Virus record (IMG/VR): IMGVR_UViG_2585427758_000013 | Strand: one strand, 5' to 3' | Length of the DNA stretch: 12,826 bases | Origin: a virus | Taxonomy: Duplodnaviria; Heunggongvirae; Uroviricota; Caudoviricetes | Shown: piece after piece, positions 1,599-12,826 of the stretch | Position numbering within the stretch: the stretch's first letter is position 1 | Layout of the letters: each line of letters starts with the position of its first letter | The notes under the pieces: model-generated | Database searches by the model: none | What the model saw: only the letters and a program-made list of their open reading frames with translations | Told to the model about the DNA's origin: nothing | Translations under genes and position numbers: made by a program

Positions 1599-1739
1599 TT
1601 ACTGCTTACACTGTAAGAACGCCGCAAACTCCGCTCCCCAGAAACTCATCCGTATTTCACACAGCGAACCGTGCAGCATCCAGATGATGAGGATTGCCGT
1701 CACGCAGAACGTGATGGCCGTAAGCGATTTTTGCGACAT
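1599..1739 (-). CDS. hok: Hok/Gef-family type I toxin (46 aa small membrane peptide)
   Basis: Hand translation of the minus strand from ATG at 1739-1737 gives MSQKSLTAITFCVTAILIIWMLHGSLCEIRMSFWGAEFAAFLQCKQ, stop TAA at 1601-1599. It has a hydrophobic N-terminal helix, the SLCEIR motif and an AAF...C-terminal tail as in Hok/HokA/RelF. AAGGAG Shine-Dalgarno 8 nt upstream. Not in the supplied ORF track (too short). Confidence 0.6.
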   Translation of the reverse strand: MSQKSLTAITFCVTAILIIWMLHGSLCEIRMSFWGAEFAAFLQCKQ

Positions 1740-2230: not shown

Positions 2231-3340
2231 TCACTCTGTTTCCGCTATCCATTCCGGGATTTTTGCCTCAAGCTCAAGCTGCGTGGTAAAACCGCTGTTA
2301 TCAATGGTGTGCTCGGCTTTTGCAATGATCCAGTCCTGATTATCAATCTCGCTTTTAAATCCTGTTACCGTGCCATGCATTTCGGGGTAGAGTTCTGCAC
2401 GTCCACGCGCCAGCGTGATGGAGAATGATGCGGCTCCGCGTTGTAGTTGCTGCCACTTTGCCGCCGCTGCGCGTCTTGCTGTCTGCTCGTTCTGATAAGT
2501 CTTGCGTAACACAAACACATTGCCTTCCGCGCCTTCCATATAATCACCTTCACGGCTGCTGCTTTTCTCCTTTTTGGGTTTTGGCGGTTTACGGCGTTTC
2601 ACGCTGACTTTTTTCTTTTTCCCGTAATTAAGATCAAGCCAGTAAGCGCGTACCCCCGTATACGCTTCGCGGTCAGCAATGCGGAACTGATGGCGATCGC
2701 CGCTGCTGCGTGTGATGGCAAACGATGGCAACGGCTGGCCCTGTGCGTTCACGCCACCGCCGGGCATGATGAATAACAGATTACCGCTTTTTACCGTGGT
2801 GATTGCGCCCAGCATTTCCGCCATGCGCGTAAGGAAGGACATGTCGCTTTCTTCGGTCTGGTCGGCGTGGTCGATTTCGATATCCATCAGCATTTCGCTG
2901 ATTTGCGGTTTCAGACCATACCGATGAGCGATGGCGGATACCACACGCTCAACGGTCACATCATGCCAGGACACCTCACGTTTAACGTTAAATTCATCCC
3001 GAAAATCTGCGCTTCTGGCTGAAACAGTCAGCCTGTCCGGCGGTCCTTCGTGAGCGATTTCATCAACAATGTAAGTGCCTTTTTCTGTCAGCGGTTCTCC
3101 TTTCCAGCCAATGAGAACCGTCAGGCGCGCGCCCCGTGGCGGTAGCTGCAACTGACCATCCGCATCATCCAGCGTGATGGTGAGCTGGTCCGCCTCAAAT
3201 CCCCGGTTGTCGGTCAGTGACAGGCTCATCAGGCACTCTGCCACGCCTGACAGCGTTTTACCCTCCGCGAGAATATCAAAATCCGGCATTTTCACGGGGT
3301 CTGTGCCCTGACTGAGCAATTGCATGGTGGTGTCGGTCAT
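2231..3340 (-). CDS. D: P2 gpD-family tail protein (late control gene D)
   Basis: Translation carries gpD-family blocks (IDHADQTEESD, RAYW, KWQQLQRG, GFKSEIDNQDW). The ORF track extends to 3472, but the likely start is the ATG at 3340-3338 (MTDTTMQLL), which is preceded by GGAGGGAG. Confidence 0.85.
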   Translation of the reverse strand: MTDTTMQLLSQGTDPVKMPDFDILAEGKTLSGVAECLMSLSLTDNRGFEADQLTITLDDADGQLQLPPRGARLTVLIGWKGEPLTEKGTYIVDEIAHEGPPDRLTVSARSADFRDEFNVKREVSWHDVTVERVVSAIAHRYGLKPQISEMLMDIEIDHADQTEESDMSFLTRMAEMLGAITTVKSGNLLFIMPGGGVNAQGQPLPSFAITRSSGDRHQFRIADREAYTGVRAYWLDLNYGKKKKVSVKRRKPPKPKKEKSSSREGDYMEGAEGNVFVLRKTYQNEQTARRAAAAKWQQLQRGAASFSITLARGRAELYPEMHGTVTGFKSEIDNQDWIIAKAEHTIDNSGFTTQLELEAKIPEWIAETE

Positions 3341-3497
3341 CTGCTCCCTCCCTGTGCGGCATGGTCGCATGTGCGTGCGGAGGGGGTTACTGCTTTTTGT
3401 TGTCGCCGTGGCGGGAGAACGGCGCAGGGGGGAGATTACGCGCGTGGTGGGTGATGATTGTTGCCGAATCATTTAACGGATACAAGGGGCTGAAGCT

Positions 3498-4682
3498 ATG
3501 AGTGAAACTCGTTTTCATGGTGCCCGTGTTACGGAAAGTACCGACCTGGTAACAGCGATTAACGATGTTGATTCCAGCGTTATCGGTATCGTGGCAACGG
3601 CGGATGATGCGGACGCGAAGCTGTTCCCGCTGAACAAGCCCACACTGCTGACCCGCGTCAATGACGTGCTGGGAAAATGCGGGACAACGGGGACGCTTTA
3701 TCGTGCGCTTAAGGCCATCGCAGACCAGGTGAGCACAAAGGTGATCGTCGTTCGCGTGGCTGAACACAAAGAAGAAAACGGAAAGACGCAGGATCAACTG
3801 GTTATCGGTGGTTCTGAATCTGACGGCAGCTATACGGGGATGTATGCGCTGCTTGTTGCAGAGCAGGATGAAAGCATCGGATACCGTCCGCGTATTCTGG
3901 CCGCGCCGGAGCTGGACACGGAGGCGGTGACAAAATCCCTGTGCGTGATTGCGGGTAAACTGCGCGCGTTTGTGTATGCCGCATGTCATGGTTGTAACAC
4001 GATGGCTGAGGCGATTACCTACCGCCAGAAATTCAACGAACGTGAGGTGATGCTCTTATGGCCTGACTTCATCGCCTACAACCCGAAAAGTGGCAAAAAC
4101 GAAACGTTCCCCGCGCCTGCTTATGCGTGCGGCCTTCGTGCGTACATTGACCATGAGCAGGGCTGGCACAAATCGCTGTCCAACGTTCCGGTTAAAAATG
4201 TGCTGGGGATGTCGAGGCATGTGTTCTGGTCGTTACAGGCCGAAGACAGTGATGCCAACAGCCTCAACAACAAAGAAATCACGACCATTATTCGTCGTAA
4301 CGGGTTCCGCTTCTGGGGCAACCGCACACCGGAAACGAACGCCTACATCTTTGAGGTGTATACCCGAACCGCACAGGTGCTGGCTGATTCAATTGCGGAA
4401 GCGCAGTTTGAAACCATCGACAGTCCACTGACGCCTGCGAACGTGAAGGATGTTATCAGTGCCATCAGGGCAAAACTGGATTCGCTGGTTACTGCCGGGA
4501 AACTGATTGGCGCGGAGTGCTGGTATGACGTGGTGGATAACGGCACCACGGATTTACGTCAGGGACGTGTGCGTATTCGCTACAAATATACGCCCGTTCC
4601 GCCACTGGAAGACATGGAGCTTTACCAGACGTTTACTGATGAATTCTTTGGTCCCGCATTTGCGGTGCTGGGAGGTGCCTGA
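3498..4682 (+). CDS. FI: contractile tail sheath protein (P2 gpFI family)
   Basis: 394-aa ORF with sheath-family blocks (LRAFVYAA, WPDF, EQGWHKSLSNV, RRNGFRFWGNRT, YKYTPVPPLE). AAGGGG Shine-Dalgarno upstream of the ATG. Confidence 0.9.
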   Translation: MSETRFHGARVTESTDLVTAINDVDSSVIGIVATADDADAKLFPLNKPTLLTRVNDVLGKCGTTGTLYRALKAIADQVSTKVIVVRVAEHKEENGKTQDQLVIGGSESDGSYTGMYALLVAEQDESIGYRPRILAAPELDTEAVTKSLCVIAGKLRAFVYAACHGCNTMAEAITYRQKFNEREVMLLWPDFIAYNPKSGKNETFPAPAYACGLRAYIDHEQGWHKSLSNVPVKNVLGMSRHVFWSLQAEDSDANSLNNKEITTIIRRNGFRFWGNRTPETNAYIFEVYTRTAQVLADSIAEAQFETIDSPLTPANVKDVISAIRAKLDSLVTAGKLIGAECWYDVVDNGTTDLRQGRVRIRYKYTPVPPLEDMELYQTFTDEFFGPAFAVLGGA

Positions 4683-5194
4683 TGGCTGTACCAAAACATC
4701 TTCGCTTTTTTACGCTGTTTGTGGATGGTGAAAACGAAGTGGGTAAGGTGACGTCCGTCACTCTGCCTAAGCTGACGCGCAAAACCGACAGCTACCGGGG
4801 TGGTGGCATGATGGGGGCGGTAAGTATTGATCTCGGTCTGGACGACTCCGCGCTTGATGCGAGCTTTGTCATGGGGGGAGCTGTTCGTGCGCTGTTCCTT
4901 AAATATGGCGGCACGATTGACGGCACGCTGCTGCGTTTTGCGGGTGAATACTACACCGATGCAGAAAGCGATCTGTATGAAATCGAGATGCGCGGGCGTG
5001 TGACGGAAATTGATATGGGGGAGGCCAAACAGGGCGAAGCCACATCACACACTTACGCTGTCAAAAACACCTACTACAAGCTGAGCGTTAACGATCGCCC
5101 GCTGTGGGAAATCGACCTGTTGAACCACATCTACCGGAAGGACGGCAAGGACATTGTGCCCGATCGCATCCGTTCCGCGCTCGGGCTTGGCTGA
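4682..5194 (+). CDS. FII: tail tube protein (P2 gpFII family)
   Basis: 170-aa ORF directly after the sheath gene. Its start overlaps the FI stop (TGATG); GGAGGTG Shine-Dalgarno. Size and position match P2 FII. Confidence 0.88.
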   Translation: MAVPKHLRFFTLFVDGENEVGKVTSVTLPKLTRKTDSYRGGGMMGAVSIDLGLDDSALDASFVMGGAVRALFLKYGGTIDGTLLRFAGEYYTDAESDLYEIEMRGRVTEIDMGEAKQGEATSHTYAVKNTYYKLSVNDRPLWEIDLLNHIYRKDGKDIVPDRIRSALGLG

Positions 5195-5248
5195 TAAGTA
5201 ATATGCAGGCGGCGCAGTGCGTCGCCTCTGACTGAAAGGAGTTTCCTG

Positions 5249-5614
5249 ATGAAAGAGACGAAAAACATCGATACCGAAAACACGGTAGTTACTGACACTG
5301 TGAAAGAAACCAGTGAGCGTGGCGTAAAACTTACCCAACCAATTGAGCGAGGCGGCGAAAAAATCACGTATGTGGAGATCACCGGGGCTATTGAGCAGGC
5401 TGGATCTCTGCGAGATTTGTCGCTGTCTGATGTGCTGAATCTGAAAGCGGAATCCATGTTTACGCTGCTGTCACGCGTGACCTCGCCACGACTGGATGAA
5501 GTGACGATCAAAAAAATGGCATCCCGTGATTTTATTCAGTTATGTGTGGTTGCCGTAAATTTTTTGAGCGGTGCGGACTCTGGCGGGAAGAGCGAACAGG
5601 CGACGGAAGCCTGA
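5249..5614 (+). CDS. E: tail assembly chaperone (P2 gpE family), frame-0 product
   Basis: 121-aa ORF with AAAGGAG Shine-Dalgarno, located between the tube and tape-measure genes. Contains an internal slippery run (see 5560-5566). Confidence 0.8.
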   Translation: MKETKNIDTENTVVTDTVKETSERGVKLTQPIERGGEKITYVEITGAIEQAGSLRDLSLSDVLNLKAESMFTLLSRVTSPRLDEVTIKKMASRDFIQLCVVAVNFLSGADSGGKSEQATEA

Positions 5615-5778
5615 TCACGGTTGTGTGCTTTGAGCACATAGAAGACTTTGTGGCGGATATTGCCGCCATTTTTAACTGGTCGCCCGCCGAAATCTTCATG
5701 ATGACGCCCGGCGAAGTGGTTAGCTGGCGTGAGCGGGCGGCACTTCGCAGCGGGAATGCAGACAATGAAGACTCTTGA
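5249..5778 (+). CDS. E': E+E' fusion chaperone made by programmed -1 ribosomal frameshift
   Basis: A -1 slip on T6G (5560-5566) moves the E frame into ORF 5542-5778 (...NFF-ERCGLWREER...). The E' frame ends at TGA 5776-5778, overlapping the tape-measure start. Same logic as P2 E/E' and lambda G/GT. Confidence 0.65.
5560..5566 (+). other. slippery heptamer TTTTTTG (recoding signal for E/E')
   Basis: Six T followed by G at 5560-5566, in frame so that AAT-TTT-TTG can slip back one base. Confidence 0.6.
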
Positions 5779-8572
5779 TATCCGGGTCGCTTTCAGCGCC
5801 GTTGACAGGCTGACCCGGCCTGCCGAAAACGCCCGCCGCCTGATGGGGCAGTTTGGTGACTCCATCCAGCGAACGCAGGGGGCGATCAAAAATCTCGAGC
5901 GTCAGGCGCGATCATTTGAGCGCGCCCGCGACGCTGTCAGTAAAGCGGATGCGGGTATCGTGAAAGCACGACGCCAGCTTAACGCCCTTAATCAGTTACA
6001 ACGCACGGGTACAGTGCTCAGCGAAAAACAACAAAAGCTGATGCAGCAGTTAAGCACCCGGCTTGAACGCCTGAATGAATCGCGCACACGGGAAATTCAG
6101 AAAATGCGGGAGCTTGGCGGAGAGCTGAAACGCCACGGCATTTCCCTGACAGGCAGCGATAACACCATCCAGCAGGCCATCAGACGCACCGAACAGTACA
6201 ACAACCAGCTTGAACGCGAACGGCAGGCGCTTGCGCGTGTAACGCGGGCGCGTGAGCGGTATTCGCGCGCGCAGGAAACCGCGGGAAAACTGAAAACAGG
6301 TGGTGCGCTGGCAATTGGTGCGGCAGCGGCGGGCGGCTATGCTGCCGGGCGTTTTTTGCAGCCTGCGATCGGGTTCGGCAAAGAGATGTCCCGCGTTCAG
6401 GCACTGACGCGAATCGACAAAAACAGCCCGCAGTTTAAGGCGCTGCGTGAGCAGGCGTTAAAACTTGGCTCTGAAACACAGTTTACTGCGAGTGATGCCG
6501 CCAGTGGGCAGAGCTTTCTGGCAATGGCTGGTTTTACTCCGCAGGCCATTCAGGCCGCATTGCCCGGTGTTCTTAATATGGCGCTGGCAGGTGGCGTCGA
6601 ACTCGGCGAGACGGCGGATATAGGCTCCAATATCCTCACACAGTTCAACCTGACAGCCGATCAAATGGACCGGGTTGGCGATACGCTGACAGCGGCATTC
6701 ACCCGGACCAATACTGATTTACGCGCGCTGGGCGAAACCATGAAGTATACCGGTCCGGTTGCCGCAAAACTTGGTATCAGTCTTGAAGAAGCGGCGGCTA
6801 TGGCCGGGATGCTTGCCAATAATGGTCTTCGCGGAAGCGATGCTGGCACGGCCATGCGCGCAAGTCTGTCCCGCCTTGCATCACCGCCAAAAGCTGCGGC
6901 TGATGCACTGAAAGAGCTGGGGGTGTCAGTTGCTGACGCCAGAGGCAAAATGCGCCCGATGGAGGATGTGCTGCTTGATCTCTATAAGGCGACACAAAAA
7001 TACGGACAGGTGGACCAGGTCTCCTTCTTCAAGGACATCGCCGGAGAAGAGGCGTTCGTTGGTTTGCAGACGCTTGTTGCGGCGGCTGGTTCAGGAGAGC
7101 TGCAAAAACTGACCAGAGAATTGCAGGGGGCAAGGGGAGAGGCCGATCGCGTTGCAAAAGTAATGGCCGATAATCTTGATGGGGACCTGAAAAATCTCGA
7201 CAGCGCATGGGAAGGTCTTCGTATTCGCATCAGTGATCTGGTTGACGGTCCGCTGCGTTCTGTCACGCAGTGGCTCACGCGGGTGCTTGAAAAAATCACC
7301 TCGCTGGCGCAGGCCCATCCGGTACTGACGCGCCAGCTACTGATAGCAGGCGGTGCGTTGCTGGCAATGACTGCAACGATTGGCTCGTTGTCACTGGTTA
7401 TTGGGGTGCTTTACGGGAAGCTGGCCACCCTGCGTCTTGGTTTTGACATTCTTACCCGGTCAATGAATGTCGTCAGGGTGTTGCCTGCGCTGTGGGGAAT
7501 GGTGACGGGTTCCGTTTCTTTGCTGGGAGGCGCTATCGGGGCGCTGTTCAGTCCGGTTGGTCTTATCGTGGCTGCGCTTGCCGGAGCTGCCGTTCTTATC
7601 TGGAAATACTGGGATCCCATCAGGGCATTTTTTGCCGGGGTGTTCAGCGGGATTATGGAAAGGCTGAACCCGTTGCGTGAAACCTTTGAACGGTTTGGTC
7701 CTGTTTTTGACGCAATCGGAAGCGGGATCAGCCAGGTGTTTAACTGGTTTAAATCGCTGCTGTCACCGATGGAGTCCAGCAAGGAAACGCTGGATAAATG
7801 TACCAGTGCTGGCGAGATATTCGGTAACGCTCTTGGTGGCGCGCTACAGCTTGTTCTGACGCCTGCAAAAATGTTGCTGGATACGCTGGCGTGGATACTT
7901 GAAAAACTCGGTGTGCTTCCGGATGAAGCGGAAAGGGCGAGAAAGAAAATCGAAGACGCACAGCGTGCGGCCATTCTTCAGGACAAGGTTGCTCTGTTTC
8001 AGGGAGACATTGCGAAAATCAATCCGCCGAAGTCTGCGGAAAATGGCAATGGCACCGGAGGCGATAAACCCAAAGACAACAAACCGCTCACAGACAGCAA
8101 TACCGGCACGCTACGCAGACTCAGCAAAATTGCTGATAACACAGGTAAGCTGGTTGATGAGACAAAAAAACGTATTGGCCCCGGCGATATTGTCTTTAAG
8201 AACCTGCCCCGCGCACTTGCTGTTCGTGGGGAGTGGCAGGAGCGGAAGATTGCACAGGTCAGTAAGCCTGCCCCCGCAATGAATATCACCCCCGTGGTCC
8301 CGGCTCCGCTGCCTCCGGCGCTGGTCCCTGTTGTTGCGGCCAGCTCCCGCCCGGTGGCGGAGGCCATACGATCTCCAGTGGCATCAGTTCCTGTAACTTC
8401 CCGTAACCGGGAGCCTGTTGCCTCCGGATTTGGTGGTGAAATTCATGTTCATCTGCATAACGTTGTTACGCAGAATCCCCGCGAACTGGCGAAACTGGTC
8501 GGTGAAATGGTCAGGGCAGAAATGGAACGGCGCGCCCGTGCCGGGCGTGGCAGTTTTTACGATAAAGATTGA
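5756..8572 (+). CDS. T: tail tape measure protein (P2 gpT family)
   Basis: Very long ORF with a coiled-coil N-terminal third, central hydrophobic/Gly-Ala-rich segments and a Pro/Val-rich C-terminus, placed after E/E'. The ORF track starts at a GTG at 5729; ATGs at 5756 and 5765 are alternative starts, so the start is uncertain. Confidence 0.88.
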   Translation: MQTMKTLDIRVAFSAVDRLTRPAENARRLMGQFGDSIQRTQGAIKNLERQARSFERARDAVSKADAGIVKARRQLNALNQLQRTGTVLSEKQQKLMQQLSTRLERLNESRTREIQKMRELGGELKRHGISLTGSDNTIQQAIRRTEQYNNQLERERQALARVTRARERYSRAQETAGKLKTGGALAIGAAAAGGYAAGRFLQPAIGFGKEMSRVQALTRIDKNSPQFKALREQALKLGSETQFTASDAASGQSFLAMAGFTPQAIQAALPGVLNMALAGGVELGETADIGSNILTQFNLTADQMDRVGDTLTAAFTRTNTDLRALGETMKYTGPVAAKLGISLEEAAAMAGMLANNGLRGSDAGTAMRASLSRLASPPKAAADALKELGVSVADARGKMRPMEDVLLDLYKATQKYGQVDQVSFFKDIAGEEAFVGLQTLVAAAGSGELQKLTRELQGARGEADRVAKVMADNLDGDLKNLDSAWEGLRIRISDLVDGPLRSVTQWLTRVLEKITSLAQAHPVLTRQLLIAGGALLAMTATIGSLSLVIGVLYGKLATLRLGFDILTRSMNVVRVLPALWGMVTGSVSLLGGAIGALFSPVGLIVAALAGAAVLIWKYWDPIRAFFAGVFSGIMERLNPLRETFERFGPVFDAIGSGISQVFNWFKSLLSPMESSKETLDKCTSAGEIFGNALGGALQLVLTPAKMLLDTLAWILEKLGVLPDEAERARKKIEDAQRAAILQDKVALFQGDIAKINPPKSAENGNGTGGDKPKDNKPLTDSNTGTLRRLSKIADNTGKLVDETKKRIGPGDIVFKNLPRALAVRGEWQERKIAQVSKPAPAMNITPVVPAPLPPALVPVVAASSRPVAEAIRSPVASVPVTSRNREPVASGFGGEIHVHLHNVVTQNPRELAKLVGEMVRAEMERRARAGRGSFYDKD

Positions 8573-8578
8573 GGAGTC

Positions 8579-9073
8579 ATGGCCATGATGATGATCTACG
8601 GCATGTTTGTTTTTGAGCTGCGTACGTTGCCGCATCAGCAGTTACAGCAAAACAAAAGCTGGCGGCATGTGAAAAATGAACGCGTTAACCGTTCAGCAAG
8701 CTGGCAGTATATCGGGGCAGGCGATGATCGCATCGTTCTTTCTGGTGTGCTTTATCCTGAAATTACAGGTGGCGAAGTGTCGCTTTCGTTGCTGACCACG
8801 CAGGCATATACAGGACGCCCCTGGCCTCTGATTGATGGTGTCGGGCAGATTTACGGCATGTATGTCCTGACCGGAACGAATACGACCCGCTCCGAGTTTG
8901 ATCGCTACGGTAAGGCGAAAAAGATAGAGTTTTCACTGACTCTTGAACGCTGTGATGAGGATTTGCGGGAGCGCCTGCAATCCTCATCGTTCAGTGATAT
9001 GCTGTCCGGCTTCAAAGATAAGGTCACATCATCCCTTAACAGCGCGGCCAGCTCCGTTAAAGGGCTGTTTTGA
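8579..9073 (+). CDS. U: tail protein gpU family
   Basis: 164-aa ORF immediately after the tape measure. GAGGAG precedes it; ATGs at 8579, 8585, 8588 and 8591 are all possible starts. Confidence 0.8.
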   Translation: MAMMMIYGMFVFELRTLPHQQLQQNKSWRHVKNERVNRSASWQYIGAGDDRIVLSGVLYPEITGGEVSLSLLTTQAYTGRPWPLIDGVGQIYGMYVLTGTNTTRSEFDRYGKAKKIEFSLTLERCDEDLRERLQSSSFSDMLSGFKDKVTSSLNSAASSVKGLF

Positions 9074-9080
9074 TTAACGC

Positions 9081-9110
9081 AAAACCGCTAATGGTCAGAT
9101 TAGCGGTTTT
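9081..9110. terminator. bidirectional hairpin between convergent gpU and invertase
   Basis: aaaaccgctaat-ggtcag-attagcggtttt: a perfect 10-bp stem flanked by A-run and T-run. The invertase stop codon (9100-9102) lies inside the stem. Confidence 0.6.
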
Positions 9111-9699
9111 CATTTTCCTGAGTCTGCCTGGTTGTTTCTTCAGCCTGTATATCGCCTACAGGGTGATAACGATAAATCGTCGATATGCCGATGTCGTAAA
9201 TGATCGCCAGTTGTTTCCTGTCATGACCGTTTTTAATCAGCCTCGCTATTTGCTCGTGTTGTTCTTTTGTCAACTTCGGGCGACGTCCGCCAATGCGTCC
9301 TTGTGCGCGTGCTGCTGCCAGCCCGGCCAGTGTACGCTCTACAATTAATTCACGTTCCATTTCGGCTAAAGCCCCCATGACGTGAAAAAAGAAACGCCCC
9401 ATGGGTGTTGATGTGTCAATGCTGTCCGTCAGACTACGGAAATTAACACCTTTTTCCCGCAATTCCTCAATAAGCGTGATCAGGTGTTTCATACTTCTGC
9501 CCAGTCTGTCCAGCTTCCAGACAACCAGCGTATCTCCTTCTGATAGCGTTCTGAGCAGTTTTTTCAATCCCGGTCTGGCTGATTTCGTTCCGCTGATTTT
9601 ATCTTCAAAAATCAGTTCACATCCTGCGCAGTTCAGTGCATTGCGTTGTAAATCCGTGTTCTGGTCATTTGTTGACACACGAACATAGCCAATTTGCAT
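9100..9699 (-). CDS. serine-recombinase DNA invertase (Hin/Gin/Pin/Cin family)
   Basis: N-terminus MQIGYVRVSTNDQNTDLQRNAL with the catalytic Ser in the GYVRVST block, then TLVVWKLDRLGRSMKHL, FFHVMGALAEMERELI and a C-terminal helix-turn-helix. AGAGGA Shine-Dalgarno 8 nt before the ATG at 9699; the longer ORF to 9894 is probably an upstream extension. Confidence 0.9.
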   Translation of the reverse strand: MQIGYVRVSTNDQNTDLQRNALNCAGCELIFEDKISGTKSARPGLKKLLRTLSEGDTLVVWKLDRLGRSMKHLITLIEELREKGVNFRSLTDSIDTSTPMGRFFFHVMGALAEMERELIVERTLAGLAAARAQGRIGGRRPKLTKEQHEQIARLIKNGHDRKQLAIIYDIGISTIYRYHPVGDIQAEETTRQTQENENR

Positions 9700-9753
9700 A
9701 AAAAACATCCTCTTTGTTTCGTGAAAAATACATAGTTGGTATAGGTAGGGATA

Positions 9754-9779
9754 AAAACGAAAACGTTGGTTTGGGGGAA
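9754..9779 (+). other. putative invertase crossover site 1 (hix/gix-like, 12-2-12)
   Basis: aaaacgaaaacg TT ggtttgggggaa. The inner ...GAAAACG-TT-GGTTT... matches the AAAACC-AA-GGTTT dyad of hix/gix-type sites as I recall them. Confidence 0.55.
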
Positions 9780-10277
9780 GGTTCTGCGCTGCCTGTTGGT
9801 GTGCCCGTTCCGTGGCCCTCAGCAACACCACCAACGGGCTGGCTGAAATGTAACGGCGCAGCATTTTCTTCTGAAATGTATCCCGGACTGGCAAAGGCTT
9901 ACCCCACCAATAAATTACCGGATTTACGGGGTGAATTTATTCGTGGCTGGGATGATGGACGTAGTGCGGATGCGGGGAGAACAATATTATCCGCTCAAGG
10001 TGATGCCATACGTAATATCTATGGTGAGTTCAAGACTGTAAACACTGAAAATTATTCAATATGGGAATCAGTAGGCTCGTTTAAGGGGGCAGTGGTGCCT
10101 TTAAATTCCTCAACAAACAATAGTTATTTCTCCTTAGTCAGAAGTATGGTGACAGAAAGGACAGACGGCGCTGTTTACCCAAAAGTGATTGGCCTTGATG
10201 CTTCAAAAATTGTTCCAACTGCAAACGAAAACCGCCCACGCAACATTGCGTTTAATTACATCGTAAGGGCAGCATGA
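9754..10277 (+). CDS. silent tail-fibre C-terminal (receptor-binding tip) cassette 1; no start codon of its own
   Basis: Frame opens through crossover site 1 as ...ENVGLGEGSALPVGVPVPWPSATPPTGWLKCNGAAFS...PDLRGEFIRGWDDGR, then a unique core, then the conserved end NRPRNIAFNYIVRAA and stop. Sequence upstream of the site is invertase promoter, not fibre coding. Confidence 0.75.
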
Positions 10278-10296
10278 AAACGTTGGTTTGGGGGAA
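10271..10296 (+). other. putative invertase crossover site 2
   Basis: agcatgaaaacg TT ggtttgggggaa. It spans the stop codon of cassette 1 and the first codons of cassette 2. Confidence 0.55.
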
Positions 10297-10821
10297 GGCT
10301 CTGCACTGCCCGTTGGTGTACCTGTTCCGTGGCCCTCAGCCACTCCACCAACGGGCTGGCTGAAATGCAACGGCGCAGCATTTTCTCCTGAAGATTACCC
10401 CAAACTGGCACAGGCTTACCCCGCGAACAAATTACCGGATCTACGGGGTGAATTTATCCGTGGCTGGGATGATGGACGTGGCTTGGATGCTGGGCGTGCC
10501 TTGCTAAGTCTTCAGGATGACTCTTTTGAAGCGCACAGGCATGAGTCCTTTTTTTATGCGGGTATTTCACGTAATGAGATCCCATTAAAAAATCTTCCAA
10601 GTTCAGACGAGATGCTGACTTTAAGTTCCACAACTAATGCCTTGTCCCCGGACGATATTGATGCCACCAACTCGTTAATTGGTAATGACGATTACAACTG
10701 TCTTATCGAAGGGAATAAAAATAACAAACGAACAGCGACAGGACTGAGTACCAGTATTGTCGGCACAGCAGAAACACGCCCCCGCAACGTTGCATTCAAT
10801 TACATCGTAAGAGCCGCATGA
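10288..10821 (+). CDS. silent tail-fibre tip cassette 2 (gene segment; frame is open from 10267 through site 2)
   Basis: Same conserved N-module and C-terminal TRPRNVAFNYIVRAA around a unique core carrying an HRH motif. The M in the ORF track is a TTG inside the crossover site, not a real start. Confidence 0.75.
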   Translation: MGEGSALPVGVPVPWPSATPPTGWLKCNGAAFSPEDYPKLAQAYPANKLPDLRGEFIRGWDDGRGLDAGRALLSLQDDSFEAHRHESFFYAGISRNEIPLKNLPSSDEMLTLSSTTNALSPDDIDATNSLIGNDDYNCLIEGNKNNKRTATGLSTSIVGTAETRPRNVAFNYIVRAA

Positions 10822-10840
10822 AAACGTTGGTTTGGGGAAA
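10815..10840 (+). other. putative invertase crossover site 3
   Basis: cgcatgaaaacg TT ggtttggggaaa (one substitution in the outer right half). Confidence 0.55.
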
Positions 10841-11260
10841 GGCTCTGCGCTGCCCGTTGGTGTGCCCGTTCCGTGGTCCTCAGCAACACCACCAACGGGC
10901 TGGCTGAAATGTAACGGCGCAGCATTTTCTTCTGAAATGTATCCCGGACTGGCAAAGGCTTACCCCACCAATAAATTACCGGATTTACGGGGTGAATTTA
11001 TCCGTGGCTGGGATGATGGGCGCGGGATTGATGCGGGACGTACCCTGCTTTCAGGGCAGGATGGTACAAGTTTTTCTCATTACGGAGGTAATTTCGACAT
11101 TGGGTCTGGTCATTCAATCAATAACTATGACCAAATTGTTTCTAACCAACCAAGCTTTTCCCGTTTTTCATTTGCAGGACCTTCACGAGGTGATGGGGTC
11201 AATTATGTAACCATTCGTCCTCGTAATATTGCGTTTAATTACATCGTAAGGGCAGCATGA
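10832..11260 (+). CDS. silent tail-fibre tip cassette 3 (gene segment)
   Basis: Conserved N-module (nearly identical in DNA to cassette 1), short unique core, conserved C-terminal RPRNIAFNYIVRAA. Confidence 0.75.
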   Translation: MGKGSALPVGVPVPWSSATPPTGWLKCNGAAFSSEMYPGLAKAYPTNKLPDLRGEFIRGWDDGRGIDAGRTLLSGQDGTSFSHYGGNFDIGSGHSINNYDQIVSNQPSFSRFSFAGPSRGDGVNYVTIRPRNIAFNYIVRAA

Positions 11261-11279
11261 AAACGTTGGTTTGGGGGAA
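11254..11279 (+). other. putative invertase crossover site 4
   Basis: agcatgaaaacg TT ggtttgggggaa, identical to site 2. Confidence 0.55.
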
Positions 11280-11747
11280 GGCTCTGCACTGCCCGTTGGT
11301 GTGCCTGTTCCATGGCCCTTAGCAACACCACCAACGGGCTGGCTGAAATGTAACGGTGCAGCATTTTCTTCTGAAATGTACCCCAAACTGGCAAAAGCCT
11401 ACCCCACTAATAAATTACCGGATTTACGCGGAGAATTTATCCGTGGCTGGGATGATGGGCGAGGAATTGATGCGGCACGCGCTTTATTGAGCATTCAAAA
11501 CGGGATGTTGGAAAAACACCGCCATATTGTTGTAGCTAACGATGGATATGACACAAAAGATGAATGGGAGTTGGCTACGATTTTCAAAAAAACATATACA
11601 CAAGGCAGGGGGCTTGATGCCACAAATACAGGAGGGAGTTTGATTCCATCACCAACGCTTCATTCACGAGGAAGTATTGGTAACACAGGTGGTAGTGAAA
11701 CCCGCCCCCGCAATATTGCATTTAACTATATCGTGAGGGCGGCTTAG
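11271..11747 (+). CDS. silent tail-fibre tip cassette 4 (gene segment)
   Basis: Conserved N-module, unique core with HRH motif, conserved C-terminal ETRPRNIAFNYIVRAA. Stop TAG at 11745-11747, convergent with the tfa stop 6 bp away. Confidence 0.75.
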   Translation: MGEGSALPVGVPVPWPLATPPTGWLKCNGAAFSSEMYPKLAKAYPTNKLPDLRGEFIRGWDDGRGIDAARALLSIQNGMLEKHRHIVVANDGYDTKDEWELATIFKKTYTQGRGLDATNTGGSLIPSPTLHSRGSIGNTGGSETRPRNIAFNYIVRAA

Positions 11748-11753
11748 TTATAT

Positions 11754-12365
11754 TCAACTGGCTGCTGCCAGTGGTATTTCCGGCAAGTTGATATCTGGTA
11801 CCATGTTTATATCCATTGCGTTCAGCGCGTCTATATAATCCAGCACGGCATTAAGCCGGGTGGTTTCTGCCTGCGTCAACTTCCGCCCGGCCTGCAACTT
11901 CAACTGAATCAGACTTATGGAAGCCATTGCCGCATCAGCCAGTGACTGGCGCTTGGTTTCTGCCGCTTCTACTGCGGCACGATGTTGTGCCTCAGTATCT
12001 GTCACCCATTTTTCACCATCCCATTTATCGTATGGTGTTAACGGGGCGATAGTGGTTGTAGTTTTCGGGTAGTCACCCAGCGCCGTGATTTCTTCGGTGT
12101 TTCCCGTGTCAGTGCTATAGACGGTTTCACCACGATGGTCTGGCGCATACTCCCATGAACTTAAATTCTCCGAACGGCGGATAGCATAGCCCGCTTTATG
12201 TGCGCCCGGGGCATCTAAACAGGAATTTGCCGGAATACCGACACCCACAGCAAGATATTCAGTTGATTCGGAAATATATTCCCGTGTCTCACCATCATAG
12301 TTATAAACGACGATGTTTCCTGCCTGTACGGCAATAAGGTCATCATTTAATATCGCGTTATTCAT
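11754..12365 (-). CDS. tail fibre assembly protein / chaperone (Tfa; P2 gpG or Mu U-like)
   Basis: 203-aa ORF whose ATG overlaps the stop of cassette 5 (TAATG), i.e. translationally coupled. C-terminal region (...LNAVLDYIDALNAMDINMVPDINLPEIP) resembles the conserved Tfa C-terminus. Confidence 0.8.
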   Translation of the reverse strand: MNNAILNDDLIAVQAGNIVVYNYDGETREYISESTEYLAVGVGIPANSCLDAPGAHKAGYAIRRSENLSSWEYAPDHRGETVYSTDTGNTEEITALGDYPKTTTTIAPLTPYDKWDGEKWVTDTEAQHRAAVEAAETKRQSLADAAMASISLIQLKLQAGRKLTQAETTRLNAVLDYIDALNAMDINMVPDINLPEIPLAAAS

Positions 12366-12826
12366 TATGCGGTTCTCACAATATAATTGAAGGCAATATT
12401 GCGTGGGCGGTTTTCATTCCCATCTGAGGATTCCGTTCTGTATTGACTGGTAAATCTACCGTTAATTGCACCTTGCCGGACGGCGTTATCTGTCGACAAC
12501 AGACTATCCCCTCTTTTGTCATTTGGCACCAGTACCGTGTTATCCCACGCATCCCATGACCGAATATTATGATAATGACTTCCTGTTAACCACCCCTGCA
12601 TGCTTAAGATGCCCCTTCCGGCATCCACCCCGCGCCCATCATCCCAGCCACGGATAAACTCACCGCGTAAATCAGGTAATTTTAACGTTGGGTAAACCTT
12701 TGCCAGATTTGGGTACATTTCAGAAGAAAATGCTGCACCGTTACATTTCAGCCAGCCCGTTGGTGGTGTGGCTGAGGGCCATGGAACAGGCACACCAACG
12801 GGCAGTGCAGAGCCTTCCCCCAAACC
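12365..12826 (-). CDS. expressed-position tail-fibre tip cassette 5; 3' part of the tail fibre gene, 5' end beyond the window
   Basis: Same conserved N-module (GEGSALPVGVPVPWPSATPPTGWLKCNGAAFS...) and C-terminus (RPRNIAFNYIVRTA) around a unique core with an HYH motif. The reading frame continues upstream off the window, so this is the C-terminus of a longer H-like fibre gene. Confidence 0.8.
   Translation of the reverse strand, partial: GLGEGSALPVGVPVPWPSATPPTGWLKCNGAAFSSEMYPNLAKVYPTLKLPDLRGEFIRGWDDGRGVDAGRGILSMQGWLTGSHYHNIRSWDAWDNTVLVPNDKRGDSLLSTDNAVRQGAINGRFTSQYRTESSDGNENRPRNIAFNYIVRTA
12815..12826 (-). other. right half of putative crossover site 5 (inverted orientation; core and left half lie beyond the window end)
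   Basis: The window ends ...ttcccccaaacc, the reverse complement of ggtttgggggaa. The core dinucleotide would be the next two bases past the window. Confidence 0.5.

What the first reader, a model, noticed from the sequence alone, without database searches (positions are those of the whole stretch)
11254..12826. Site 4 to site 5 looks like a Mu G-segment that has lost one chaperone gene; the single tfa is welded to cassette 5
Between sites 4 and 5 the order is cassette-4 core (plus), tfa (minus), cassette-5 core (minus), with no site between them. However the locus inverts, tfa stays immediately downstream of cassette 5 and convergent with cassette 4, whose stop lies only 6 bp from the tfa stop with no terminator. 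Only cassette 5 is translationally coupled to a chaperone. Cassettes 1-4 must either fold without Tfa, use it in trans, or be non-functional reserves. Mu and P1 carry two chaperone genes back to back in this position.
Basis: inference. Interest (0 to 1): 0.6.

Follow-up and report, generated by a model that had tools for sequence, protein, structure and literature searches.

The report
Tail-fibre tip shuffler, one shared chaperone
This is the core of a known kind of phage host-range switch, in which a DNA invertase shuffles five alternative tail-fibre tips that share one assembly-chaperone gene; having a single chaperone is normal for this family, but how it is supplied when it points the wrong way is still unknown.

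Summary
Site 4 (11254-11279) to half-site 5 (12815-12826) holds cassette 4 (+), a 6-bp gap, tfa (-) and cassette 5 (-). The cassette 5 stop overlaps the tfa ATG. There is no internal site, no terminator and no second tfa.

This is not a local loss. It is the conserved "double-headed" segment of a Min/p15B-type multiple-inversion array, here in a P88-like (P2-family) prophage next to serS. About 27 related arrays, in P2-like prophages and P1-like plasmids, carry the same [tip->tfa-><-tip] unit, with one tfa for 3-12 cassettes.

The five sites allow 48 isomers. tfa is always co-oriented with the fibre gene for C5, never for C4, and in half the isomers for C1-C3.

A closed genome carries the same prophage with C4 fused to the fibre gene and tfa opposed. 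The unpartnered cassettes are under purifying selection (dN/dS 0.10-0.24).

The same Tfa type is translationally coupled to at least 18 unrelated tip cores elsewhere, including C1- and C4-type cores. A shared, generalist chaperone is therefore the best reading.

How tfa is expressed when opposed remains unresolved. This is a known kind of system and of modest interest.

The parts
9081..9110 (.). Terminator-like hairpin between tail gene U and the end of the invertase gene. It is context only: it limits read-through from the FI-U late operon into the array.
   Evidence: 12-bp stem followed by a T-run. (-15.6 kcal/mol, z -2.9).
9100..9699 (-). Din-family serine DNA invertase (Hin/Gin/Cin/Pin/Min type).
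   Evidence: Resolvase N-terminal domain E 2e-51 plus HTH_7. It is 97% identical to the recombinase of P1-like plasmid arrays.
9754..9779 (+). Crossover site 1, with 12-2-12 architecture and central TT.
9768..10277 (+). Cassette C1 (core cluster c3): a collar-framed tip with no start codon of its own and no adjacent tfa.
   Evidence: The same core, 83-94% identical, is coupled to Tfa in 8 simple loci.
10271..10296 (+). Crossover site 2.
10288..10821 (+). Cassette C2 (core cluster c12).
   Evidence: No relative was found in isolated phage genomes.
10815..10840 (+). Crossover site 3 (one mismatch in the core).
10832..11260 (+). Cassette C3 (core cluster c5).
11254..11279 (+). Crossover site 4 (AGCATGAAAACG TT GGTTTGGGGGAA), the left border of the double-headed segment.
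11271..11747 (+). Cassette C4 (core cluster c2): a collar-framed tip that is permanently convergent with tfa.
   Evidence: Core dN/dS is 0.10. It is fused to H in L088 at 100% amino-acid identity.
11748..11753 (.). The 6-bp spacer TTATAT between the C4 stop and the tfa stop. It is conserved in related arrays.
   Evidence: The same 6-bp gap occurs in L005, L088 and L095.
11754..12365 (-). tfa, the single tail-fibre assembly chaperone (203 aa).
   Evidence: PF02413, E 9e-31, aa 78-198. It is 76% identical to HK97 Tfa and 77% identical to the Tfa that follows a C1-like tip in Salmonella phage MET_P1_103_31.
12365..12826 (-). Cassette C5 (core cluster c1). Its stop overlaps the tfa ATG. Its frame is open to the window end.
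   Evidence: The in-frame fusion to H is seen in L006.
12815..12826 (-). Inner half of crossover site 5 (TTCCCCCAAACC on the + strand). The window stops just before the central dinucleotide.
   Evidence: The full site TTCTTGATTACC TT GGTTTGGGGGAA is read in L006.

Best explanation
What it is (shown). Window 9100-12826 is a Min-type multiple DNA-inversion host-range switch belonging to a P88-like (P2-family) prophage integrated next to serS. A Din-family serine invertase recombines five 26-bp sites. Four are in one orientation at the heads of C1-C4. One is inverted at the head of C5.

How it shuffles. Only inversions between oppositely oriented sites are productive, so the four segments can be permuted into 48 isomers. 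Each isomer fuses one of five promoter-less, T4-gp37-like tips to the constant 5' part of fibre gene H, which lies just beyond the window on the minus strand.

The tips. Each tip has a conserved collar frame (about 60 N-terminal residues plus ...RPRNIAFNYIVRAA at the C terminus) around a variable core.

The flagged region. Site 4 to site 5 is the single 'double-headed' segment [C5 -> tfa -> 6 bp <- C4]. It carries the only chaperone gene.

The chaperone (inferred). This Tfa is a generalist for collar-framed tips and serves every cassette in trans. It is made most efficiently in the H::C5 isomers, by co-transcription plus stop/start coupling. In the other co-oriented isomers it would be made from H-operon read-through across the silent cassettes; no terminator lies between them. 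In opposed isomers (always the case for C4) it must come from a source that the sequence does not reveal.

Confidence by step. Identity of the system: about 0.9. Shared generalist Tfa: about 0.6. The single figure given (0.65) is for the whole statement.
For: Identity of the parts.

Constant H part beyond site 5.

Active shuffling of this very element. Closed genome 266917_2 has the same prophage at serS. Its tfa, invertase and C1-C4 are 100% identical in amino acids and C5 is 99% identical. The order there is C1, C3, C2, C5>, tfa>, <H::C4, which is three inversions away from the window. The three-cassette version in E2348/69 was shown by PCR to exist as four co-existing variants (PMC4272514).

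Single tfa is the family norm. About 27 arrays have the same unit and one tfa, including a P1-like plasmid with 12 cassettes.

The Tfa is a generalist. A Tfa 77-80% identical over its full length is translationally coupled to at least 18 unrelated core clusters, including C1-type (8 loci) and C4-type (4 loci; 77-96% core identity). Its N-domain stays 86% identical on average across different tip clusters. HK97 Stf/Tfa is a further example.

The tips align to the T4 gp37 tip (2XGF) at the collar and at the extreme C terminus. gp37 needs the chaperone gp38 (PMC9608196).

The unpartnered cassettes are selected. Core dN/dS is 0.10 for C4-type, 0.23 for C1-type, and 0.24 and 0.22 for clusters c4 and c6, against 0.22 for the coupled C5-type. 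Within the unit, variation is dominated by third codon positions.
Against: - No promoter that could drive tfa in the opposed orientation was found.
- A terminator-like hairpin follows gene U.
- The tfa Shine-Dalgarno sequence is weak (GAG about 10 nt upstream), so uncoupled translation may be poor.
- In H::C4 isomers the late transcript would run antisense through tfa.
- C3-like tips in mEp043 and 500465-2 use Tfa proteins with a diverged N-domain (38% and 55% overall identity). C2-type cores were never seen next to any Tfa. Service of C2 and C3 by this Tfa is therefore an extrapolation.
- No binding or folding experiment exists for these proteins.
Confidence: 0.65

Rival explanations
1. Chaperone-gated switch. 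Tfa is made only when tfa is co-oriented with H, and best when H::C5. Opposed isomers (half of all, and every H::C4 isomer) would yield fibre-less or poorly infectious particles, so the orientation of tfa adds an on/off layer to tip choice.
For: - No orientation-independent promoter was found.
- The SD is weak and translation normally depends on coupling.
- Convergent late transcription would oppose tfa in H::C4 isomers (inference).
- Only one copy of this tfa type exists in strain 266917_2, which sits in the H::C4-opposed state.
- In the unrelated FRphi shufflon, only one of three locked isoforms was infectious on the tested host (PMC13418256). The authors attribute this to receptor specificity.
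Against: - C4-type tips can never be co-transcribed with tfa, yet show the strongest purifying selection (dN/dS 0.10).
- They are retained in essentially all P2-like arrays.
- Co-oriented and opposed states are equally common in assemblies (19 vs 17). Prophage-state frequencies are not expected to reflect virion fitness, however.
Confidence: 0.2
2. C1-C4 tips fold without any Tfa. The chaperone is needed only by the C5 tip, to which it is welded.
For: - In arrays the coupled cassette is always the C5-type (27 of 27 informative units).
- C2- and C3-type cores were never seen next to this Tfa.
Against: - C1-type and C4-type cores are directly coupled to the same Tfa type in 8 and 4 simple loci.
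- All five tips share the gp37-type collar frame, whose prototype needs gp38.
- No intramolecular chaperone domain is present. The cassettes are 142-177 codons long and end at the collar motif.
Confidence: 0.1
3. C1-C4 are decaying, non-functional reserves, or the single tfa reflects a recent deletion in this particular genome.
For: The cassettes lack start codons and promoters, and only one lies next to tfa.
Against: - All cassettes are intact and 97-100% identical to copies in other genomes.
- dN/dS is 0.10-0.24.
- C4, C1-type and other cassettes are seen fused to H.
- The identical unit with its 6-bp spacer occurs on P2-like, P1-like and a third backbone.
Confidence: 0.03
4. Tfa for opposed isomers is borrowed from other resident prophages, for example lambdoid tfa genes.
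For: HK97-type lambdoid phages encode a 76% identical Tfa, and such prophages are common in E. coli.
Against: - Only 758 of 5426 complete genomes hold any close copy of this tfa. The median is 1 place per genome, and there is 1 place in strain 266917_2.
- Borrowing would require co-induction of another prophage.
Confidence: 0.05

Closest known systems
Min multiple-inversion system of plasmid p15B (Sandmeier, Iida, Arber et al. 1990-1992). The original papers are not held in the library, so details are from my own knowledge.
   Same: - Din-family serine invertase.
- More than two crossover sites of the same 26-bp type.
- One constant 5' fibre-gene part fused alternatively to promoter-less 3' cassettes.
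- P1-like plasmid arrays with min plus a truncated second invertase carry the same [tip->tfa-><-tip] unit, a 95% identical Tfa and a 97% identical invertase.
- The published 240 isomers for six sites equals 5! x 2. That is what one double-headed segment plus four single-headed segments gives in my model. The published 3.5 kb fits six cassettes plus one tfa.
   Different: - The replicon is a P2-family (P88-like) prophage at serS rather than a P1-like plasmid.
- The constant part is H-type rather than S-type.
- There are five sites and 48 isomers rather than six sites and 240.
- I could not compare with the deposited Min sequence itself.
P2-like prophage 'shufflon' of EPEC E2348/69 (Goldberg et al. 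2014, PMC4272514) and EC958 Phi2 (PMC4134206).
   Same: - Same backbone, invertase and site type (..AAACGTT GGTTTGGGGGAA).
- Same C4-type/tfa/C5-type unit, with Tfa 99% identical.
- Four co-existing variants were shown by PCR, as the model predicts for three sites.
   Different: Those loci have three cassettes (E2348/69) or one invertible segment (Phi2). The window has five cassettes. Neither paper discusses the chaperone.
Mu G segment, P1 C segment, e14 P segment and P88's own invertible segment.
   Same: - Din invertase.
- Crossover inside the fibre gene.
- Alternative tips switch host range.
- A tfa lies directly after the tip.
   Different: Those systems have two sites, two tips and two back-to-back tfa genes (P88; L066). 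Here there are five sites, five tips and one tfa, and that tfa is not related to P88's.
T4 gp37 distal tip with chaperone gp38, and lambda/HK97 Stf-Tfa.
   Same: - The cassettes align to the gp37 tip (2XGF) in the collar and at the C-terminal NIAFNYIVRxA.
- HK97 Stf has the same frame, and its Tfa is 76% identical.
   Different: Those are single, fixed tips, each with a dedicated downstream chaperone gene. The cores here are shorter (63-98 residues).
R64-type shufflon (Rci, pilV).
   Same: Multiple inversions among several sites assemble alternative C-terminal ends on one constant gene.
   Different: It uses a tyrosine recombinase and different sites, acts on a pilus adhesin and involves no chaperone. 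It is an analogy only.

Membership tests
Din-family invertase system (Hin/Gin/Cin/Pin/Min) | Small serine recombinase with a resolvase catalytic domain and a C-terminal HTH | tested here: met
   PF00239 E 2e-51 and PF02796 E 1e-12 for 9100-9699(-).
Din-family invertase system (Hin/Gin/Cin/Pin/Min) | 26-bp crossover sites (12-2-12) with an identical central dinucleotide, present in inverted orientation | tested here: met
   Four sites read AGCATGAAAACG/AAAACGAAAACG TT GGTTTGGGGGAA on the + strand, and one inverse site sits at the window end. The full site 5 is read in L006.
Din-family invertase system (Hin/Gin/Cin/Pin/Min) | Fis-dependent recombinational enhancer in the 5' part of the invertase gene | not tested
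   The Fis consensus is too degenerate for a meaningful scan with these tools.
Din-family invertase system (Hin/Gin/Cin/Pin/Min) | The segment is actually found in alternative orientations | tested here: met
   The same prophage (99-100% amino-acid identity of all parts) occurs in another isomer in strain 266917_2. Further isomers are seen.
Min-type multiple-inversion array | More than two sites, giving overlapping invertible segments, with several promoter-less 3' cassettes for one constant 5' part | tested here: met
   Five sites and five cassettes. The constant part is seen in L006 and L088. The model gives 48 reachable isomers.
Min-type multiple-inversion array | Homology of invertase and cassettes to p15B Min itself | tested here: inconclusive
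   The invertase is 97% and Tfa 95% identical to P1-like plasmid arrays that carry min plus a truncated second invertase.
Mu G / P1 C two-state segment | Exactly two inverted sites flanking two tips, each followed by its own tfa (two back-to-back chaperone genes) | tested here: not met
   There are five sites and one tfa, with a 6-bp gap between the C4 stop and the tfa stop.
Tail fibre assembly protein (Tfa, PF02413) | Caudo_TAP domain in the C-terminal two thirds, and a gene directly after the fibre tip | tested here: met
   (aa 78-198, 107 bits against a cut-off of 22). TAATG overlap with C5.
Tail fibre assembly protein (Tfa, PF02413) | Binds the fibre tip and is required for trimer folding | not testable with these tools
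   This needs co-expression or genetics. The only indirect evidence is coupling to at least 18 tip types.
T4 gp37-type collar-framed receptor-binding tip | Phage Tail Collar domain at the N-terminal end and the NIAFNYIVRxA motif at the extreme C terminus, enclosing a variable insert | tested here: met
   (PF07484 in all five). (alignment to 2XGF at residues 27-90 and 220-242). HxH motifs are present in C2, C4 and C5 only (read).
Fibres with a C-terminal intramolecular chaperone (Peptidase_S74) | Auto-cleaved C-terminal chaperone domain beyond the receptor-binding part | tested here: not met
   No such Pfam hit. The cassettes end at the collar motif, as gp37 does.
R64-type shufflon | Tyrosine recombinase Rci acting on sfx repeats | tested here: not met
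   The recombinase is a serine resolvase/invertase.

The most novel reading that the evidence does not exclude
The orientation of the single chaperone gene may be a second, hidden layer of the switch. There are two possibilities. One is that tfa has an unrecognised way of being expressed whichever way it points. That would explain why C4-type tips stay under strong purifying selection although they can never be co-transcribed with it. The other is that half of all isomers are deliberately chaperone-less, producing particles with no side fibres or altered ones. Neither has been examined for any Min-type array in the literature I could search.
Probability: 0.2. Interest if true: 0.55.

Novelty: new member of a known kind. 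Interest (0 to 1): 0.3.

Why it matters
Practical value. One roughly 200-residue Tfa appears to serve many unrelated tips that share a collar frame. That would make a simple design rule for re-targeting P2-type phages and tailocins: keep the frame and the chaperone and swap only the 60-100-residue core.

Interpreting experiments. It also warns that locked-isomer experiments on tail-fibre shufflons can confound receptor specificity with chaperone supply.

Genome annotation. The unpartnered cassettes are selected gene parts, not pseudogenes. Contig breaks at these sites indicate mixed isomers in the sequenced culture.

The phenomenon itself (a Min-type multiple inversion with a single tfa) is old and widespread, so the finding does not change the field.

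Tried and rejected
1. Search for a second tfa. tblastn of Tfa against the window gave one hit. The ORF map leaves no room for another.
2. A promoter for tfa in the opposed state.
   - The sigma-70 scan gave 2 hits against 5.2 expected. The one inside C5 (12706-12679) is not conserved among C5-type cassettes.
   - The P2 Ogr-type dyad TGT-N12-ACA occurs twice in the window against 3.3 expected. One copy is at 9715-9732 next to site 1, but the window's own FI promoter region lacks the motif, so it is uninformative.
3. A dip in synonymous diversity upstream of tfa as a sign of an embedded element. The whole centre of the unit has low diversity and there is no specific dip.
4. Read-through from the FI-U operon. 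A -15.6 kcal/mol terminator-like hairpin intervenes. A second backbone carrying the same unit has host genes on that side.
5. Rfam found nothing in the window.
6. The first dN/dS estimate for C3-type cores (6.2) was an artefact of saturated pairs between two subtypes. Recomputed, it is 0.10 from few differences.
7. The original p15B papers (PMID 1945872, PMID 1534556, PMC53420, PMC206102) are not held.
8. The C2 core has no relative in isolated phage genomes.
9. I first took the inverted FI-U block relative to P2 for a rearrangement. It is the normal P88-like gene order.
10. Structure prediction was not run. Only monomers can be submitted, and the question concerns a trimer-chaperone complex.
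Full report
WHAT THE WINDOW IS

The window starts with E. coli serS (1-1293). It then runs into the right arm of a P2-family prophage:
- a hok/gef-like ORF;
- ogr (1930-2190, -) and D (-);
- the tail genes FI, FII, E, T and U (3498-9073, +);
- a serine invertase (9100-9699, -);
- an array of short ORFs that all begin ...GEGSALPVGVPVPWP... and end ...RPRNIAFNYIVRAA.

Complete relatives show the same gene order, with the fibre gene H and the baseplate genes I, J, W and V on the minus strand just beyond the array. This is the P88-like (Xuanwuvirus) arrangement. The prophage sits next to serS in 279 of 5426 complete E. coli genomes.

CHECK OF THE OBSERVATION

The core GAAAACGTTGGTTTGGGGGAAGG occurs four times on the + strand, at 9759, 10276, 10820 and 11259, against 0 expected by chance. 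Read as 12-2-12, these give the 26-bp sites 9754-9779, 10271-10296, 10815-10840 and 11254-11279.

The inverse copy is cut by the window end, which stops at ...TTCCCCCAAACC, exactly before the central dinucleotide.

Between site 4 and this half-site lie four things:
- C4 (11271-11747, +);
- six bases, TTATAT;
- tfa (11754-12365, -);
- C5 (12365-12826, -), whose stop overlaps the tfa ATG (TAATG).

There is no terminator-like hairpin at the C4/tfa junction. No second Tfa-like sequence occurs anywhere in the window. Cassettes fill 9768-11747 with only 10-bp gaps.

Pfam calls tfa Caudo_TAP (E 9e-31). It calls all five cassettes Phage Tail Collar and finds no S74-type intramolecular chaperone.

WHAT LIES BEYOND THE WINDOW

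IMG/VR contig L006 is 100% identical to 11254-12826. It continues through the complete site 5 (TTCTTGATTACC TT GGTTTGGGGGAA) in frame into 390 codons of H. That contig itself ends at site 4. Contigs breaking at the crossover sites are what mixed isomers in a culture produce, as described for EC958 (PMC4134206).

THE SAME ELEMENT IN ANOTHER ISOMER

The closed genome of strain 266917_2 has this prophage at serS. The invertase, Tfa and C1-C4 are 100% identical in amino acids, and C5 is 99% identical. The order there is invertase, C1, C3, C2, C5>, tfa>, and then H fused to C4 on the opposite strand, 6 bp from the tfa stop.

I modelled the array as one double-headed segment [C5, tfa, C4] plus three single-headed segments, with recombination only between oppositely oriented sites. 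This gives 48 isomers (4! x 2), and the 266917_2 state is three inversions from the window.

In this model tfa is co-oriented with H as follows:
- in all 6 H::C5 isomers;
- in none of the 6 H::C4 isomers;
- in 6 of the 12 isomers for each of C1, C2 and C3, with one to three silent cassettes in between.

The model also reproduces three published or recalled figures:
- four variants for the three-site array of E2348/69, which were verified by PCR (PMC4272514; locus);
- the 50/25/25 isoform ratio reported for the three-tip FRphi shufflon (PMC13418256);
- 5! x 2 = 240 isomers for six sites, the number I recall for p15B Min (own knowledge; papers not held).

IS A SINGLE tfa UNUSUAL?

No. I fetched 80 viral contigs encoding a relative of this Tfa and several annotated records, then mapped collar cassettes, tfa and invertase in each.

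About 27 loci are multi-cassette arrays. Every one contains the unit [C5-type tip -> tfa -> <- C4-type tip], with a c7-type tip as the convergent partner in most P1-like plasmids. Each has one tfa for 3-12 cassettes.

A P1-like plasmid, NZ_CP196102, has 12 cassettes plus the fused one and a single tfa, with the same 6-bp gap. Only L009 has two copies of the whole unit.

The identical tfa DNA also sits on a third backbone, in the order D-V-W-J-I-H-array-invertase. The unit is therefore an old, mobile module and not a deletion peculiar to this genome.

Mu-like segments with two back-to-back tfa genes do exist in relatives. Examples are P88, L066 with a 96% C4-like core and 500465-2. Descent of the unit from such a segment is therefore plausible but untested.

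ARE THE UNPARTNERED CASSETTES USED?

Co-oriented and opposed states are about equally frequent among assemblies (19 vs 17).

H is found fused to C4-type tips with tfa convergent in L018, L021, L088 and L095. It is also found fused to C1-type, c4, c6, c7 and c8 tips.

Pooled Nei-Gojobori estimates of core dN/dS on array copies:
- C4-type: 0.10
- C1-type: 0.23
- c4: 0.24
- c6: 0.22
- C5-type (the coupled cassette): 0.22

Within units of identical length, variation in C4 is concentrated at third codon positions. C2-type copies are too similar to one another to judge. The C3-type value rests on few differences. 'Non-functional reserve' is therefore not supported.

DO THEY NEED THIS Tfa?

The cassettes align to the distal tip of T4 gp37 (PDB 2XGF), both at the collar and at the extreme C terminus (NIAFNYIVRLA in gp37). 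gp37 needs gp38 and gp57A to fold (PMC9608196).

More than 50 simple loci have one collar tip followed by tfa. There, a Tfa 77-80% identical to the window's over its full length is translationally coupled to at least 18 unrelated core clusters. These include C1-type (8 loci; 83-94% core identity; for example Salmonella phage MET_P1_103_31) and C4-type (4 loci; 77-96%).

The fibre-binding N-domain (function from North et al. 2019, as summarised in PMC9608196) stays 86.5% identical on average between Tfa proteins attached to different cores. Between Tfa proteins attached to the same core it is 93.7% identical.

HK97 Stf/Tfa is a further lambdoid example: same frame, a different core, and a 76% identical Tfa.

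I therefore infer that this Tfa recognises the shared collar frame and can serve all cassettes.

Three limits apply:
- C3-like tips (53-55% core identity) in mEp043 and 500465-2 have Tfa proteins with a diverged N-domain (38% and 55% overall identity).
- C2-type cores were never seen beside any Tfa.
- Nothing here measures binding.

WHAT REMAINS UNEXPLAINED

In opposed isomers, which is always the case for H::C4, tfa points towards the fibre gene.

I found no conserved promoter for it. Its SD is weak. The FI-U late operon on the other side ends in a -15.6 kcal/mol hairpin. Strain 266917_2 has no second copy of this tfa type.

Yet C4-type tips are strongly conserved. The possibilities are an unseen source of Tfa expression, Tfa-independent folding of some tips, or a real cost or gate in half of the isomers. 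Sequence alone cannot decide among these. The experiments are listed under next steps.

VERDICT

The element is a new member of a long-known kind: the Min/p15B-type multiple inversion, already seen as a 'shufflon' in the P2-like prophage of E2348/69.

Having a single tfa is the family norm. It is best explained by a generalist chaperone shared by collar-framed tips. The chaperone-supply puzzle is genuine but modest.

Interest is 0.3.

Noticed in passing
window 12815-12826 (window end); L006 8007-8010: The window stops exactly before the central dinucleotide of site 5. The 100%-identical contig L006 stops at site 4. Assemblies appear to break at the crossover sites, which suggests mixed isomers in the sequenced cultures.
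   Followed up: partly
window 1599-1739 (-): A 46-codon ORF (MSQKSLTAITFCVTAILIIWMLHGSLCEIR...) lies between serS and ogr. The same position is annotated 'Hok/Gef family protein' in related prophages. No Sok-like RNA reached the Rfam threshold.
   Followed up: partly
window 3510-3525 versus 10267-10282 and 11250-11265: The first codons of the sheath gene FI contain CGTTTTCATGGTGCCC. It is 15/16 complementary to the outer half of the crossover sites plus flanking bases (pairs I21 and I22). It could be a quasi-site or chance.
   Followed up: no
window 10274-10363, and likewise at each cassette junction: The TGA stop of each cassette overlaps an ATG (ATGA) inside the crossover site. That ATG opens a 29-codon ORF in the +1 frame across the conserved collar DNA. 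It is probably a by-product of the site sequence.
   Followed up: no
window 2231-9073: The FI-U tail block is inverted relative to D/ogr and H when compared with phage P2. This is the normal order in P88-like phages, not a rearrangement.
   Followed up: yes
L093, L094, L095: The identical tfa DNA (100%) and unit sit on a different backbone, in the order D-V-W-J-I-H-array-invertase, directly next to host genes (yoaE, sufB, torZ). The module moves between phage types, or lies in prophage remnants.
   Followed up: no
L009 4658-8167: One viral contig carries two copies of the whole [tip, tfa, tip] unit in opposite orientations. It is the only array found with two tfa genes.
   Followed up: no
L089 2031-2636; L090 2731-3324: Tips distantly related to C3 (53-55% core identity) in mEp043 and 500465-2 are followed by Tfa proteins with a conserved C-domain but a strongly diverged N-domain. 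This hints at at least two specificity classes within this Tfa family.
   Followed up: partly
PMC13418256 (FRphi shufflon): The reported 50/25/25 isoform ratio is what one double-headed plus one single-headed segment gives at equilibrium. Only one locked isoform was infectious, and chaperone supply was not considered there.
   Followed up: no
window 9715-9732 (+): TGTTTCGTGAAAAATACA lies between the invertase start and site 1 and points into the array. It fits the TGT-N12-ACA dyad of P2 Ogr-dependent late promoters. The count is not above chance, and the window's FI promoter region lacks the motif.
   Followed up: partly
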